DNA of 64,000 bases from Eledone cirrhosa (taxonomy: Eukaryota): NCBI GenBank assembly GCA_964016885.1, contig OZ024743.1, positions 350,424,001 to 350,488,000 on the forward strand, in the 5' to 3' direction. A program made the translations under genes and the position numbers. Shown here one piece after another: positions 2,126 through 62,500 of this stretch. The notes beneath the pieces are model-generated. The model was not told where the DNA came from, did no database searches, and saw only the letters and a program-made list of their open reading frames with translations. The stretch's first letter is position 1; every line of letters begins with the position of its first letter.

Positions 2126-2490
2126 TATAAAGAAAAGGGGATGAAATCGAAAATGCAACTGAAGTCTTATTTTTTTAAAAATATATATATTTATTTGGTT
2201 CCTTTACCGGTTTCGCAGTTCTTCTGCTTTTCAAAAGGTGAGTTGAGATGGAGGGTCTGTGGTTTTTCTCACATCTGATGTGAGAAAAACCACAGACCCT
2301 CCATCTCAACTCACCTTTTGAAAAGCAGAAGAACTGCGAAACCGGTAAAGGAACCAAATAAATATATATATTTTTAAAAAAATAAGACTTCAGTTGCATT
2401 TTCGATTTCATCCCTTTTTCTTTATACTTCCACTCGTGTAGGACACCTCGGTTATTTTTCATTTTGTAAAAAAAACCTCACTTTCTAATA
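2126..2490. mobile_element. Fold-back element (150-bp arms, centre 2276) plus unpaired tail, between (TA)n tracts
   Basis: 2126-2275 is the near-perfect reverse complement of 2277-2426. Confidence 0.9.
2314..2351 (+). ncRNA. Minimal type I hammerhead ribozyme, U3-A8 core variant
   Basis: CCUU|UUGAAAA|GCAG-aagaa-CUGC|GAAA|CCGG|UA|AAGG; mirror copy on the - strand in the left arm. Confidence 0.7.
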
Positions 2491-2655
2491 TATATATATA
2501 TATATATATATATATATATATATATATATATATATATATATATATATATATATATATATATATATATATTTATATATATATAAATATATATATATATATA
2601 TATATATATATATATATGTATGTATGTATATATATATATACAAATAAACCTATAT

Positions 2656-2820
2656 ATAGGAAAAGAGTCAGGACCCCGACGGCTGAACTCCATCCGTTTC
2701 GACAGCTAGAGATCGGAGTCTTGACTCTTTTCTTGTTACCCATTCTACTACCCTAAGTATTGAGTGCTCTAGTGCGTTATGGTCCACCTGATATCTTACC
2801 ACACCGACTTTGTTAAACCT
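2656..2820. mobile_element. Truncated copy of the HHR family seen at 7541 and 56489
   Basis: Shares ggaccccgacggctga...ccgtttcgac and the tail taagtattgagt..tgcgttatggtccacctg with 7541-7733. Confidence 0.75.
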
Positions 2821-3799
2821 ATATATATATATATATATATATATATACATATATATATATATACATATATATATACATATATATATATATATATATATAT
2901 ATATATATATATATATATATATATATATATATACATATATATATATATACAGGATTTCCCCCAAATATGTATACACACAGCATTATAATAAAAGTGTGTA
3001 TACATTTTAGGGGGACACCCTCTGAATATATATATATATATATATATATATATATATATATATATATATTTATTTATTTATAAATATATATATATATATA
3101 TATACATATATATATATATATGTGTGTATATATATATATATATATATATATATATACATATATATATATATGTATATATGTGTGTATATATATAAATATA
3201 TATATATGTGTGTGTGTGTGTGTGTGTGTAAGTGCATGTGAATGTGTACCTGTATGTTTGTGTGCATGTACTGTGGGATGGGGGAACATATACCTTATAG
3301 AATAAGGCTAAGTTGAACAGGTATTGGTTATTTGTATGTCGCTCTATTAGACCTGCTGTCCTGTTTGCTAAACTATCATACTATTTATCCGATCATGTAT
3401 GACAGTCATATCACTAACAATACAGTCGTATTGAGCAACATAATATAATGCGTATAATGGACACCAATATTGACTGATTGAAACGGTGAGAATTGTCTCT
3501 GAACAACACTCAACTAAAAGTGTTTCTTTATCACTGCTCAGTCTTAGTGGACAATTGACATAAAAGAGCAATAGATTTAAGCTACCAACAGTTCACAAAC
3601 ATCTATCATTCGTTCTTTAATGACCGCCATCGATAGTCAACGAGAGCCACTCCATAACAACATCACCTACCAGCTCTTTCAGATCACTGAGAACTGCACA
3701 GCTGATGCAATTTTCATACATTTATATTTATTTATAAATGTGATTTTCTTGGTATTATTGTTACTGCTGATGCTGGCTTTGTTCTCCTTCTTTTTCTTC

Positions 3800-4620
3800 T
3801 TCCTATTATTATTATTATTATTATTATTTCTTCTTCTTCTTCTTCTTCTTCTTCTTCTTCTTCTTCTTCTTCTTCTTGTATATGCCTTTTGTTGTTTTTG
3901 TTATTGTTTCTGTTGTTGTTATTGTTGTTTTTGTTGATATTTCGGATTTACGATCACGAAATCTTATCAGAAAATGAAATCCTATAAAAACGGAGAGATG
4001 TGCGCATGCATTCATGTATGTATGTATGTATGTATGTATGTATGTATGTATGTATGTATGTATGTATGTATGTATGTATGTAAGTATGCATGTGTATGTA
4101 TGTATGCATGTATCTATGTATGTATGTATGTATGTATGTATGTAAGTATTCATGTGTATGTATGTATGCATGTATGTATGCATGTATGTATGCGTGTGTG
4201 TGTGTATGTATGCATGTATGTATGTATGTGTGGGTGTGTATGTATGTGTGTGTGTGTATGTATATATGTATGAGTGTGTGTCTATATATGTATGTAGGTA
4301 TGTATATATGTATGTAGGTATGTACTTATTTATGATTGTATGCGTGTATGTACATATGTACGTATGTATGTATGTATTAATGCATGTATGCATGTGCGTA
4401 CGTATATATTTATCTATATATGTATATGTGTGTATCTGCATTTATGTATGTATGCATGTTTTATCTCTGTATATTCATATGTATGTATGATCATATGTAT
4501 GCATGTGTGTTTATGTATACATGTATGTATATGTGTGTGTGTGTGTGTGTGTGTATCTATGCATGTCTATATCTATATATGTGCACTTATATGCATGTAT
4601 TAATGCATAAATCTTAATAC
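3800..4620. repeat. (TTA)n/(TTC)n then (TATG)n microsatellite complex
   Basis: Simple repeats. Confidence 0.95.
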
Positions 4621-59600: not shown

Positions 59601-60393
59601 ATTATATCTAAATGTTTCTTCTCTCTTCATAATGTATTTTTAACTCTGATACTGGTTCAGTCTGGTTCAAACTGAATTGGTCTGTCCCAGTCATTCATTG
59701 AGCAACATCGGTGAAGTTGGCACCCTTAACTCACAGTTGGGTGCGGATGCATTCATGTATATATGTGTGTGTCCGCATGTATCTGTGTGTTTCTAAATAT
59801 ATTAATAACTCCCTCTGGTCGAGCAATCTTTGAAGTGTGGGGACAACTCGAAAGCTTCCATTACTCATACTTCTCGCCTTCTTCACTACCTCTTCTACGG
59901 CCTCGATATGAATACCCCCTCCGCCTCCGTGGTATTTTCTTCGTGGTTATAAGAGGCTTAGCTCTGTTTCTCGACCGTTATATCGCGTGACTATCTCCCC
60001 CTCCGCCTTTTGGGATTCTTTCTCACGTCGTGTAGACGCGTTCTTGAGACTAGTAAAATGAGGTATCCTCTTGATAAGTTGGCAGACCTCGCAAGGACTC
60101 TATATCTTTGATATATTGTTTTTGTTTATGCCACGAAACTACGTAGTCGAGGAATTTAGGAGCAGTTTAGGTATGATACATTTTATTACTAATTATATCT
60201 AAATGTTTCTTCTCTCTTCATAATGTATTTTTAACTCTGATACTGGTTCAGTCTGGTTCAAACTGAATTGGTCTGTCCCAGTCATTCATTGAGCAACATC
60301 GGTGAAGTTGGCACCCTTAACTCACAGTTGGGTGCGGATGCATTCATGTATATATGTGTGTGTCCGCATGTATCTGTGTGTTTCTAAATATAT
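56657..60393. repeat. 591-bp tandem array (~4.3 units, then ~2 inverted units) with one HHR per unit, between (TA)n tracts
   Basis: Units start 56657, 57248, 57839, 58430, 59021; inversion junction at 59215-59216; inverted units at 59215 and 59806. Confidence 0.97.
59475..59562 (+). ncRNA. Type I hammerhead of the 591-bp unit (U3-A8 core); also 60066-60153 (+) and 56732-56819, 57323-57410, 57914-58001, 58505-58592, 59096-59183 (-)
   Basis: UCCUC|UUGAUAA|G-u-UGGCA...UGCCA-C|GAAA|CUACGUAG|UC|GAGGA. Confidence 0.8.
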
Positions 60394-61100
60394 ATATATA
60401 TATATGTATATGTATATATATATATATATATATATATATATATATATATATATATATATATATGTATATGTATATATATATATATATATATATATATATA
60501 TATATATATATATATATATGTATATGTATATATATATGTATATATATATATATATGTATGCATATATGTATATATATATATGTATATGTGTATATGTATA
60601 TATGTATGTATATATATATATATATATATATATATATATATATATATATATATATATATATATATATATATATGTATATATATATATGTATGTATATATG
60701 TATATATATATATGTATATATATATATGTATATATGTATATATATATATGTATATATGTATATGTATATATGTTTATATATATATGTATGTATATATATA
60801 TATATATATATATATATATATATATATATATATATATATGATGGGTACCTCCTCGTTATCGAGTATGGCCATTGCACGATATACCTTTATATATACATAC
60901 ATACATATATACATATATATATATATATATATATATATATATATATATATATATATATATATATATATATATATATATATATATATATATATATATAGAT
61001 ATATATATATATGTATGCATGTATGTATGTATATATATATATATATATATATATATATATACATACATATATACATATACACACACATATATATATATAT
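60394..61100. repeat. (TA)n-rich microsatellite
   Basis: Simple repeat. Confidence 0.96.
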
Positions 61101-61375
61101 ATTATTAGAAATGTTAGCTATCGCCGTATTTTGACTAAAGAAATTAAAAAAATTATTTAGCCTGATAGTGGGGTTAAGAACCCTCGGAGAAATGGAAAAA
61201 GATGAGTATTGACGTACATGTACGTCAATACTCATCTTTTAAAATTTCCCCGAGGGTTCTTAACCCCACTATCAGGCTAAATAATTTTTTTAATTTCTTT
61301 AGTCAAAATACGGCGATAGCTAACATTTCTAATAATTTCAAATCCACTCGCTGTTTCGAAAATATTCTTACTTGA
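61101..61375. mobile_element. Fold-back element (~115-bp arms, no loop) plus tail in (TA)n; no convincing HHR
   Basis: Apex gacgtacatgtacgtc; arms 61101-61218 and 61219-61336. Confidence 0.8.
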
Positions 61376-61467
61376 TATATATATATATATAATATATATA
61401 TATACACACACACACACACACACACACACACACACACACACACATACATATATATATATATATATAT

Positions 61468-62500
61468 AAAAACAAATAACGAAACGAAATTAAATTTCGT
61501 TTCGTTTGTAACTCACTTTTGTATGACTGACGCTTAAACAATTAAGTTAAAAATGTACATCTACATATGCATACTGAAATACTAGTGTGTATATGAATAC
61601 ACACACGTATACATATGTAGGTGTAACGAGTCTTTCACTGGTTGCTTTACTGTGAGCAACCCAGCTATTCTGTATGTAAACACACAGACAAACCGGTTTT
61701 TAGAGTCATACTGGTTTTCGAGGAAACGCCTTTCCTCTATTCTCCAGAAAGCCAGACAAGGAATATTGAACTAGTTTCGTTGTTGTTACAACTCATCAGC
61801 AATATTTACCTATCTACCGGCCTTTCTGGAGAATCGTAAAAGCACATATCGTTATATGGTTTTTCTATGAAAATTAGTAGTGGGCAGACTAATTTGCATA
61901 GAGTGTGAGTACGCACCGGTTCAGCGGAGACGATAAAAACAAATAACGAAACGAAATTAAATTTCGTTTCGTTTGATACACACTAGTATTTCAGTATGCA
62001 TATGTAGATGTACATTTTTAACTTAATTGTTTAAGCGTCAGTCATACAAAAGTGAGTTACAAACGAAACGAAATTTAATTTCGTTTCGTTATTTGTTTTT
62101 ATCGTCTCCGCTGAACCGGTGCGTACTCACATTCTATGCAAATTAGTCTGCCCACTACTAATTTTCATAGAAAAACCATATAACGATATGTGCTTTTACG
62201 ATTCTCCAGAAAGGCCGGTAGATAGGTAAATATTGCTGATGAGTTGTAACAACAACGAAACTAGTTCAATATTCCTTGTCTGGCTTTCTGGAGAATAGAG
62301 GAAAGGCGTTTCCTCGAAAACCAGTATGACTCTAAAAACCGGTTTGTCTGTGTGTTTACATACAGAATAGCTGGGTTGCTCACAGTAAAGCAACCAGTGA
62401 AAGACTCGTTACACCTACATATGTATACGTGTGTGTATTCATATACACACTAGTATTTCAGTATGCATATGTAGATGTACATTTTTAACTTAATTGTTAT
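61468..62500. mobile_element. Fold-back HHR element built from a 467-bp monomer; both arms exceed one unit
   Basis: Redundancy 61468/61935 in the left arm and 61976/62443 in the right arm; homologous to 55212-56105. Confidence 0.9.
62229..62273 (+). ncRNA. Minimal type I hammerhead ribozyme
   Basis: AAUAUUG|CUGAUGA|GUUGU-aaca-ACAAC|GAAA|CUAG|UU|CAAUAUU; mirror copy in the left arm. Confidence 0.85.

What the first reader, a model, noticed from the sequence alone, without database searches (positions are those of the whole stretch)
2126..62500. A window-wide class of HHR fold-back elements at (TA)n with a fixed polarity
Seen: about a dozen inverted-repeat elements of several unrelated sequence families (2126, 7541, 17808, 18305, 40486, 41950, 42296, 44105, 51530, 52112, 55212, 56657, 61468). 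Most abut (TA)n. Wherever an HHR can be read, its sense strand runs outward from the centre: + in the right arm, - in the left. Copies of one family have different apex breakpoints (18305 vs 51530; 55212 vs 61468). Known: PLEs carry minimal HHRs in pseudo-LTRs and often have inverted 5'-truncated segments. Inference: both strands of a cut (TA)n target are primed on RNA 3' ends and the two truncated cDNAs are joined at the centre, giving a reproducible insertion product that may make up a large unannotated share of this genome.
Basis: partly seen in the sequence, partly recalled or inferred. Interest (0 to 1): 0.85.

Follow-up and report, generated by a model that had tools for sequence, protein, structure and literature searches.

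The report
Head-to-head Penelope and retrozyme insertions
These mirror-image ribozyme cassettes in TA microsatellites have the inverted layout already known from Penelope-like jumping genes and cover about 4% of the sampled genome, and their strict one-short-end, one-long-end rule suggests that both cut DNA strands are likely copied from one RNA at two fixed start sites.

Summary
Observation confirmed. All 13 inverted repeats exist, 12 abut (TA)n, and every readable hammerhead (HHR) points outward (9 by descriptor, 2 variant cores by eye, 2 truncated and oriented by homologs). In 79 unselected 10-kb stretches, 18 of 18 opposite-strand HHR pairs diverge. 61 of 118 inverted repeats have (TA)n at one end and a 25-171 bp tail before (TA)n at the other (background 1.4%): about 4% of bases. 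They are 3' ends of Penelope-like elements (PLEs; two window families trace to coding Hydra-type copies) and tandem HHR retrozymes. Head-to-head inversion, one-sided tail, (TA)n targeting and two RT start sites are all published, so this is not a new class. Not found in print: in four families, 77 of 78 two-armed copies pair one short with one long end; arm lengths are uncorrelated and often not nested; both arms share template variants (8 of 8 testable). This argues against the published self-priming model and for priming both target strands at two sites of one RNA. The scan noted this pattern before on other DNA (at least 3 genomes). Ribozyme cleavage, expression and mechanism are untested.

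The parts
2126..2488 (.). Head-to-head element, 150-bp arms (2126-2426), HHR with TTGAAAA core at 2205-2234 (-) and 2318-2347 (+), 61-bp tail on the right
   Evidence: homologs in 9 of 79 sampled stretches
7540..7732 (.). Head-to-head extreme 3' end of a coding Hydra-type PLE; 58-bp arms, HHR truncated to its 3' half, 77-bp tail
   Evidence: 93% match to both ends of the coding copy in L047
17748..18291 (.). Head-to-head element, 56-bp tail on the left; variant HHR at about 18092-18126 (+) and its mirror (-), read by eye
   Evidence: missed by the descriptor
18301..18712 (.). Family F3, HHRs at 18352-18406 (-) and 18525-18579 (+), 81-bp tail
40485..41157 (.). Head-to-head 3' end of a PLE family with coding copies; HHRs at 40533-40581 (-) and 40969-41017 (+), 83-bp tail
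   Evidence: 90-91% match to the ends of the RT-bearing copy in L037
41959..42186 (.). Short head-to-head element, HHR truncated to its 3' half, 93-bp tail on the left
42296..42934 (.). 90-bp left arm plus a right arm of more than one 416-bp unit, HHR at 42688-42718 (+); right end not at a clean (TA)n
44105..44498 (.). Head-to-head element, HHR at 44192-44262 (-), partial HHR on +, 101-bp tail
51528..51988 (.). Family F3, second copy with a different apex; HHRs at 51579-51633 (-) and 51793-51847 (+), 97-bp tail
52113..53138 (.). 206-bp identical arms around a 515-bp spacer; HHR with CCGAAGA core at about 52952-52990 (+) and 52161-52199 (-); 100-bp tail; left flank (AG)n
55210..56104 (.). Retrozyme family F467 (467-bp unit), older copy; left arm ends at the long site, right arm at the short site; HHR at 55849-55879 (+), left HHR mutated
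56657..60393 (.). Retrozyme family F591: 4.3 units on - joined head-to-head to 2.0 units on +; HHR with compensated U3-A8 core in every unit (5 on -, 2 on +); left arm ends at site B, right arm at site A
61103..61374 (.).
61466..62498 (.). Retrozyme family F467, young copy; both arms longer than one unit and not nested; HHRs at 61769-61799 (-) and 62236-62266 (+)

Best explanation
These are 5'-truncated, head-to-head insertions in (TA)n with one short and one long end, likely made by a Penelope-type RT-endonuclease that primes both cut target strands on one RNA at two fixed sites. Shown: outward polarity, two fixed 3' ends per family, one of each per insertion, variable apex, and the same layout in coding Hydra-type PLE copies. 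Inferred: the enzyme (probably a dimer) nicks both strands of (TA)n; one 3' end primes at site A and the other at site B of the same RNA, helped by AU-rich pairing; the two cDNAs stop at unrelated points, are joined 3'-to-3' bluntly or through 1-5 shared bases, and are filled in. The one-sided tail is the RNA between the two sites. For the tandem retrozymes the template is likely multimeric or circular, since arms run up to 7.6 units through the HHR cut site.
For: End rule: F591 27 of 27 two-armed copies; F467 16 of 16 with both ends at a standard site; F3 26 of 26 (query selected the long arm); coding Hydra-type 8 of 9. In F591 the two ends are used about equally (A left in 15, B left in 12; one-armed copies 8 A, 4 B), so 27 of 27 has a chance of about 1e-8. 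F591 arm lengths are uncorrelated (rho 0.13, p 0.53); A is longer in 11 and B in 16. Arms cannot be nested in 5 of 27 F591, 8 of 16 F467 (my arithmetic) and 5 of 8 coding copies. 8 of 8 testable F591 variants fixed in one arm are also in the other arm, 4 of them seen in no other of 38 loci. L028 carries the same 99-bp deletion in both arms in the 70-nt register. Apex overlap averages 1.5 nt against 0.66 by chance, and 8 of 27 are blunt. A 14-bp target duplication flanks L005. PAc nicks and extends both strands, is modelled as a dimer and has two RT start sites bounding the tail (PMC11167929).
Against: L266 has two long ends. In L186 a variant is in 3 of 4 units of one arm and 0 of 2 of the other. 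In L190 three unit-specific variants are mirrored at a 1013-nt offset, which a monomer circle cannot give. Shared variants could also come from two transcripts of one source array or from later gene conversion between the arms. No coding partner was found for F591 or F467. PAc in vitro starts at a site not homologous to the cut DNA, while the ends here look AU-paired. No enzyme or RNA was tested.
Confidence: 0.65

Rival explanations
1. Both strands are primed, but on two separate RNA molecules, one per monomer, with the protein imposing the A/B asymmetry; shared variants reflect one active source locus per germ cell.
For: Explains polarity, non-nested arms and independent lengths equally well. 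Fits L186, where the arms differ.
Against: Needs an extra reason why two equivalent RNAs are read at different sites in 77 of 78 cases. Private variants are shared by both arms in all 4 such cases.
Confidence: 0.2
2. Self-priming or fold-back: one cDNA (or an antisense RNA, as proposed in PMC3846280) folds back and is copied into the second arm; the endonuclease then trims one end to leave the tail.
For: Published model for the head-to-head arrangement. Predicts shared variants and the excess of short apex overlaps. 22 of 27 F591 copies are geometrically nestable.
Against: The second arm must lie within the first; it cannot in 5 of 27 F591, 8 of 16 F467 and 5 of 8 coding copies. Either end type can carry the longer arm (11 against 16). 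8 of 27 apexes are blunt, and implied loops would often be hundreds to thousands of bases.
Confidence: 0.08
3. Two independent insertions into the same microsatellite, or later rearrangement, create the inverted pairs.
For: (TA)n is a hotspot; separate neighbouring copies with TA between them occur (L146, L161, L164).
Against: No TA lies at the apex. 18 of 18 pairs and 27 of 27 F591 copies are head-to-head, none tail-to-tail. The strict A/B pairing and shared private variants are not expected.
Confidence: 0.04
4. Assembly or library fold-back artefact.
For: Palindromes are a known long-read artefact (own knowledge). The window's own apexes were not shown in unamplified reads.
Against: Arms of older copies differ by up to 25%. 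Ends are asymmetric in a family-specific way. Raw reads of two other samples show (TA)n directly behind site B (192 and 145 reads), and left-arm-to-right-arm joints at other breakpoints appear in one run's contigs (4) and one raw run (1, 3 reads).
Confidence: 0.03

Closest known systems
EN+ Penelope-like elements, especially the Hydra clade (Craig et al. 2021, PMC8557442; passages and section 11 read)
   Same: Inverted 5'-truncated copy at the 5' end, tail at one end only, (TA)n targets, HHR near the 3' end. Coding copies here (L047, L254) have a C-terminal endonuclease-like region with the CxCX5C linker.
   Different: Tails here are 25-171 bp against the published 30-40 bp. Most copies are so truncated that no ORF remains. 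The passages read ascribe the tail to endonuclease resolution and state no one-of-each rule.
Poseidon PAc of the green anole (Frangieh et al. 2024, PMC11167929; main text section read)
   Same: Cuts and extends both strands of AT-rich DNA, predicted dimer, internal initiation, two RT start sites that bound the tail.
   Different: It reports no difference in start site between strands and does not say that the two sites are paired within one product or that this makes the inversion. Its initiation is described as not homologous to the cut DNA.
Animal non-LTR retrozymes (Cervera and de la Pena 2020, PMC7229834, passages and discussion read; Li, Clavereau and Pollet, bioRxiv 10.64898/2026.07.22.740005, parts 1-3 of 5 read)
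   Same: Non-coding tandem units with one type I HHR each; proposed circular templates giving tandem cDNA; proposed PLE mobilisation.
   Different: The text seen describes no head-to-head insertions, fixed paired ends or (TA)n targeting ('inverted' occurs 0 times in PMC7229834, once in the preprint). Here the retrozymes carry the full PLE insertion footprint.
Adineta vaga Penelope elements (Arkhipova et al. 2013, PMC3846280; passages read)
   Same: Head-to-head inversions noted as the most frequent arrangement; optional 31-bp tail on one inverted pLTR; target duplications of 8-10 bp.
   Different: Explained by self-priming on an antisense template, which the non-nested arms here contradict.
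L1 twin priming
   Same: Both target strands prime on one RNA, and the cDNAs are joined through a few shared bases.
   Different: L1 arms cover non-overlapping RNA and the second site is variable. Here the arms overlap and both sites are fixed.

Membership tests
EN+ PLE insertion product | Inverted 5'-truncated copy joined head-to-head | tested here: met
   18 of 18 HHR pairs; 27 of 27 F591 and 18 of 18 F467 two-armed copies
EN+ PLE insertion product | Tail at one end only | tested here: met
   61 of 118 sampled inverted repeats against 1.4%; 77 of 78 in four families
EN+ PLE (autonomous) | RT plus GIY-YIG ORF within the element | tested here: not met
   No PLE protein match inside any of the 13 window elements; 7541 and 40486 match the ends of coding copies L047 and L037
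Hydra clade (coding relatives) | CxCX5C linker before a C-terminal endonuclease | tested here: met
   Motif read in the ORFs of L047 and L254, as defined in PMC8557442 section 11
Hydra clade (coding relatives) | HHR downstream of the ORF in the same sense; (TA)n target | tested here: met
   6 of 6 ORF hits with a downstream HHR and no TA between have it in sense, one a Neptune-type hit; (TA)n follows most 3' ends in L251-L280
Hydra clade (coding relatives) | RT phylogeny, DKT and RWK motifs, absence of CCHH | not tested
   No tree built; Pfam gave no hit for the L254 and L047 ORFs
Non-LTR retrozyme (F591, F467) | Non-coding tandem units, each with a type I HHR | tested here: met
   HHR in each unit of 56657-60393; F467 array of more than 60 kb on C5
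Non-LTR retrozyme (F591, F467) | Self-cleavage of the transcript | not testable with these tools
   Only predicted from the fold
Non-LTR retrozyme (F591, F467) | Expression as circular RNA | not testable with these tools
   No RNA data laid; variants fixed in all units are indirect, and L190 and L028 point to multimeric templates
MITE or foldback DNA transposon | Symmetric terminal inverted repeats around a constant interior | tested here: not met
   Ends are asymmetric and the apex varies from copy to copy

The most novel reading that the evidence does not exclude
Penelope-type enzymes integrate by obligate two-site twin priming: one dimer engages two fixed start sites on a single RNA, multimeric or circular, and copies it from both cut strands at once. 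This would explain PLE inversions, the one-sided tail and retrozyme arrays with one mechanism, which has written about 200,000 palindromes and several hundred thousand hammerhead motifs into this genome.
Probability: 0.5. Interest if true: 0.72.

Novelty: new variant of a known kind. Interest (0 to 1): 0.52.

Why it matters
How PLEs form their tandem and inverted structures is named as an open task in PMC8557442, and the published explanation seen here (self-priming, PMC3846280) is contradicted by the geometry. The one-of-each rule and the shared variants give a sharp prediction for the existing in vitro PLE system. The retrozymes carry the full PLE footprint, which supports PLE mobilisation from insertion structure rather than co-occurrence. 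The load is large: about 77 signature elements and 124 HHR motifs per Mb of sample (roughly 230,000 and 370,000 if scaled to 3.0 Gb, with a permissive descriptor), most of them too short to carry an ORF.

Tried and rejected
Rfam finds only 3 HHR hits among the rows shown, all below the gathering score, and many microRNA look-alikes from simple repeats; these were ignored. The first descriptor missed core variants and was replaced. One sampled HHR was labelled inward (L039); it lies in the loop and continues the left arm. Tails are not significantly more folded than random stretches (56 tails, p 0.13), so a structured-tail argument was dropped. The PLE RT fragment at 53761-54520 led to a Neptune-type family (CX2-5CxxC linker); one of 10 long-ORF copies (L244) is head-to-head in (TA)n, but no HHR was found in it and no link to F591 or F467 was seen. 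No RNA holder was listed for the window stretch. One run of another organism laid nothing. Read support for the window's own apexes was not obtained. An A>G bias among fixed variants (5 of 10 in sense) is too small to claim, and the common read variants run the other way. Searches for a published twin-priming model for PLEs found none, but the library lacks most subscription papers, and no supplements were read (Figure S2 of PMC11167929 and supplementary Figure S9 of PMC7229834 may bear on novelty).
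Full report
Setting. The window is G000:C4:350,424,001-350,488,000 in an animal assembly of 3.0 Gb. I did not try to name the source.

Observation. Self-BLAST confirms all 13 inverted repeats. Twelve have (TA)>=4 within 2 bp of one end; 52112 abuts (AG)n. 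In 10 of 13 the other end reaches (TA)n after 56-101 bp; 56657 abuts TA at both ends, and 42296 has no clean right end. A type I HHR descriptor that allows long stem II, palindromic stem III and the U3-A8 core gave 14 hits at score >=9 against 0 in 8 shuffles; 13 lie in listed elements and one (7367) outside. At >=8.5 it reads HHRs in 9 of the 13 elements, all pointing outward. Two more have variant cores read by eye (17808; 52112 with CCGAAGA, also in homolog L144). Two keep half an HHR and were oriented by homologs (7541, 41950).

Genome sample. I requested 80 evenly spaced 10-kb stretches and obtained 79 (789,800 bases; 62 from the four largest chromosomes). They hold 98 HHR motifs at >=8.5, against about 1 per shuffle, in 43 of 79 stretches, and 126 local inverted repeats. 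Of the 28 repeats with an HHR, 23 were labelled outward, 4 loop-only and 1 inward; that one lies in the loop and continues the left arm. Independently of repeat calling, 18 of 18 neighbouring similar HHRs on opposite strands diverge. After dropping 8 repeats near stretch edges, 78 of 118 have (TA)n within 12 bp of one end (background 6.1%), and 61 of 118 have it at one end with a 25-171 bp tail before (TA)n at the other (background 1.4%). These 61 cover 31.7 kb, 4.0% of the sample. Scaled up, that is about 230,000 elements; coding copies with long spacers and one-armed copies are not counted, and 45 of the 61 show no HHR by the descriptor.

What the families are. 7541 and 40486 match the ends of RT-bearing copies (L047, L037) that have the same layout: outward HHRs and (TA)n flanks, with an 80-bp tail on one side in L047. 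L047 and L254 carry the CxCX5C linker that defines the Hydra clade in PMC8557442 section 11; no tree was built. F3 (18305, 51530) is the 3' end of a longer element; in L148 its partner arm is a PLE RT fragment. F467 (55212, 61468) and F591 (56657) are non-coding tandem units with one HHR each, so they fit non-LTR retrozymes. F467 has an array of more than 60 kb on C5. Both units fold stably as circles (z -10 and -7 against 30 shuffles). No coding partner was found for them.

The end rule. For F591 I took the window and 37 loci from the 40 scored candidates of 437 (the short contig C774 was left out). They hold 39 elements, 12 one-armed and 27 two-armed. All 27 are head-to-head, and each has one arm ending at site A and the other at site B, 165 nt apart. 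For F467, 18 of 18 two-armed copies are head-to-head; 16 have both ends at standard sites, one short and one long each, and 2 have one non-standard end. F3 gave 26 of 26, but the query selected the long arm and all 40 full-length hits were on the + strand, a search bias I cannot explain. A coding Hydra-type family gave 8 of 9 among 30 loci with only 1.5-kb flanks; L266 has two long ends. In total, 77 of 78. Raw reads of two other samples show (TA)n directly behind site B (192 and 145 reads).

Fold-back or two primers. A fold-back second arm must lie inside the first. It cannot in 5 of 27 F591 copies, 8 of 16 F467 copies (my arithmetic) and 5 of 8 coding copies, where the short-ended arm carries the ORF and the other arm carries the tail. 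F591 arm lengths are uncorrelated (rho 0.13) and either end type may be longer (11 against 16). Apex overlap is 0-5 nt in 24 of 27 (mean 1.5 against 0.66; 0 of 20,000 resamples), 8 are blunt, and 3 have 2-14 inserted bases. L005, in a non-TA target, has a 14-bp duplication.

One template. All 8 F591 variants that are fixed in a multi-unit arm and covered by the other arm are present in both arms; 4 occur in no other of the 38 loci. L028 has one 99-bp deletion in both arms. Against a simple monomer circle: L186 has a variant in 3 of 4 units of one arm only, L190 mirrors three unit-specific variants at a 1013-nt offset, and several single-copy differences are unshared. The data therefore show one template lineage. 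One molecule is the simplest reading; one source array or later gene conversion is not excluded.

What is known. PMC8557442 (passages and section 11) describes the inverted 5'-truncated copy, the one-sided tail and (TA)n targets, and lists their origin as open. PMC3846280 (passages) notes head-to-head as most frequent and proposes self-priming. PMC11167929 (main text section) shows nicking and extension of both strands, a predicted dimer and two start sites bounding the tail. PMC7229834 (passages and discussion) and bioRxiv 10.64898/2026.07.22.740005 (parts 1-3 of 5) tie retrozymes to PLEs. My seven searches found no statement of the one-of-each rule or of twin priming for PLEs; subscription papers and supplements were not seen. 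L1 twin priming and the activity of U3-A8 and U4C cores are recalled, not read. Eight earlier notes of this scan, from 12 findings in at least 3 genomes, report the same pattern; I had written my reading down before looking, and they are not independent evidence.

Verdict. Real, genome-wide and PLE-derived. The architecture is known; the paired-end rule and the evidence against self-priming are the new part. New variant of a known kind, interest 0.52.

Noticed in passing
window:53761-54520: Degenerate PLE RT fragment; about 60% identical to an abundant Neptune-type family, one copy of which (L244) is head-to-head in (TA)n with 2-kb arms and no HHR found.
   Followed up: partly
window:22600-23313: Second degenerate PLE fragment of the same type.
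   Followed up: no
window:17229-17700, 23288-23533, 54911-55188, 2659-2819: One-armed or mini-hairpin copies of the same families between (TA)n runs.
   Followed up: partly
window:1709-1858, 6893-7013, 30053-30235, 34086-34836, 36305-36432, 41674-41819, 53289-53487, 54527-54704: A dispersed 130-200 bp repeat at about 10 places, SINE-like by eye, unrelated to the hairpins.
   Followed up: no
window:7945-8100: AT-rich hairpin, 86% complementary, no HHR and no homolog in the 79 sampled stretches.
   Followed up: partly
window:11159-11892 and 14059-14801: 746-bp direct duplication at 95% identity between (ACAT)n runs.
   Followed up: no
G000:C5:87,617,000-87,680,000 (L009-L023, L218-L220): F467 satellite array of more than 60 kb, units about 99% identical; a possible source locus.
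   Followed up: partly
L247:277-2028; L080:251-3381: A further family with a 310-bp HHR unit: head-to-head multimer between TA runs in L247, an array of 11 units in L080.
   Followed up: no
L266:425-700: Coding Hydra-type copy with an HHR-like segment just upstream of the ORF as well as a 3' end, and two long ends; the one exception to the end rule.
   Followed up: partly
F591 loci L170-L206: 5 of 10 variants fixed across all units of an element are A>G in the sense strand; too few to claim RNA editing.
   Followed up: partly
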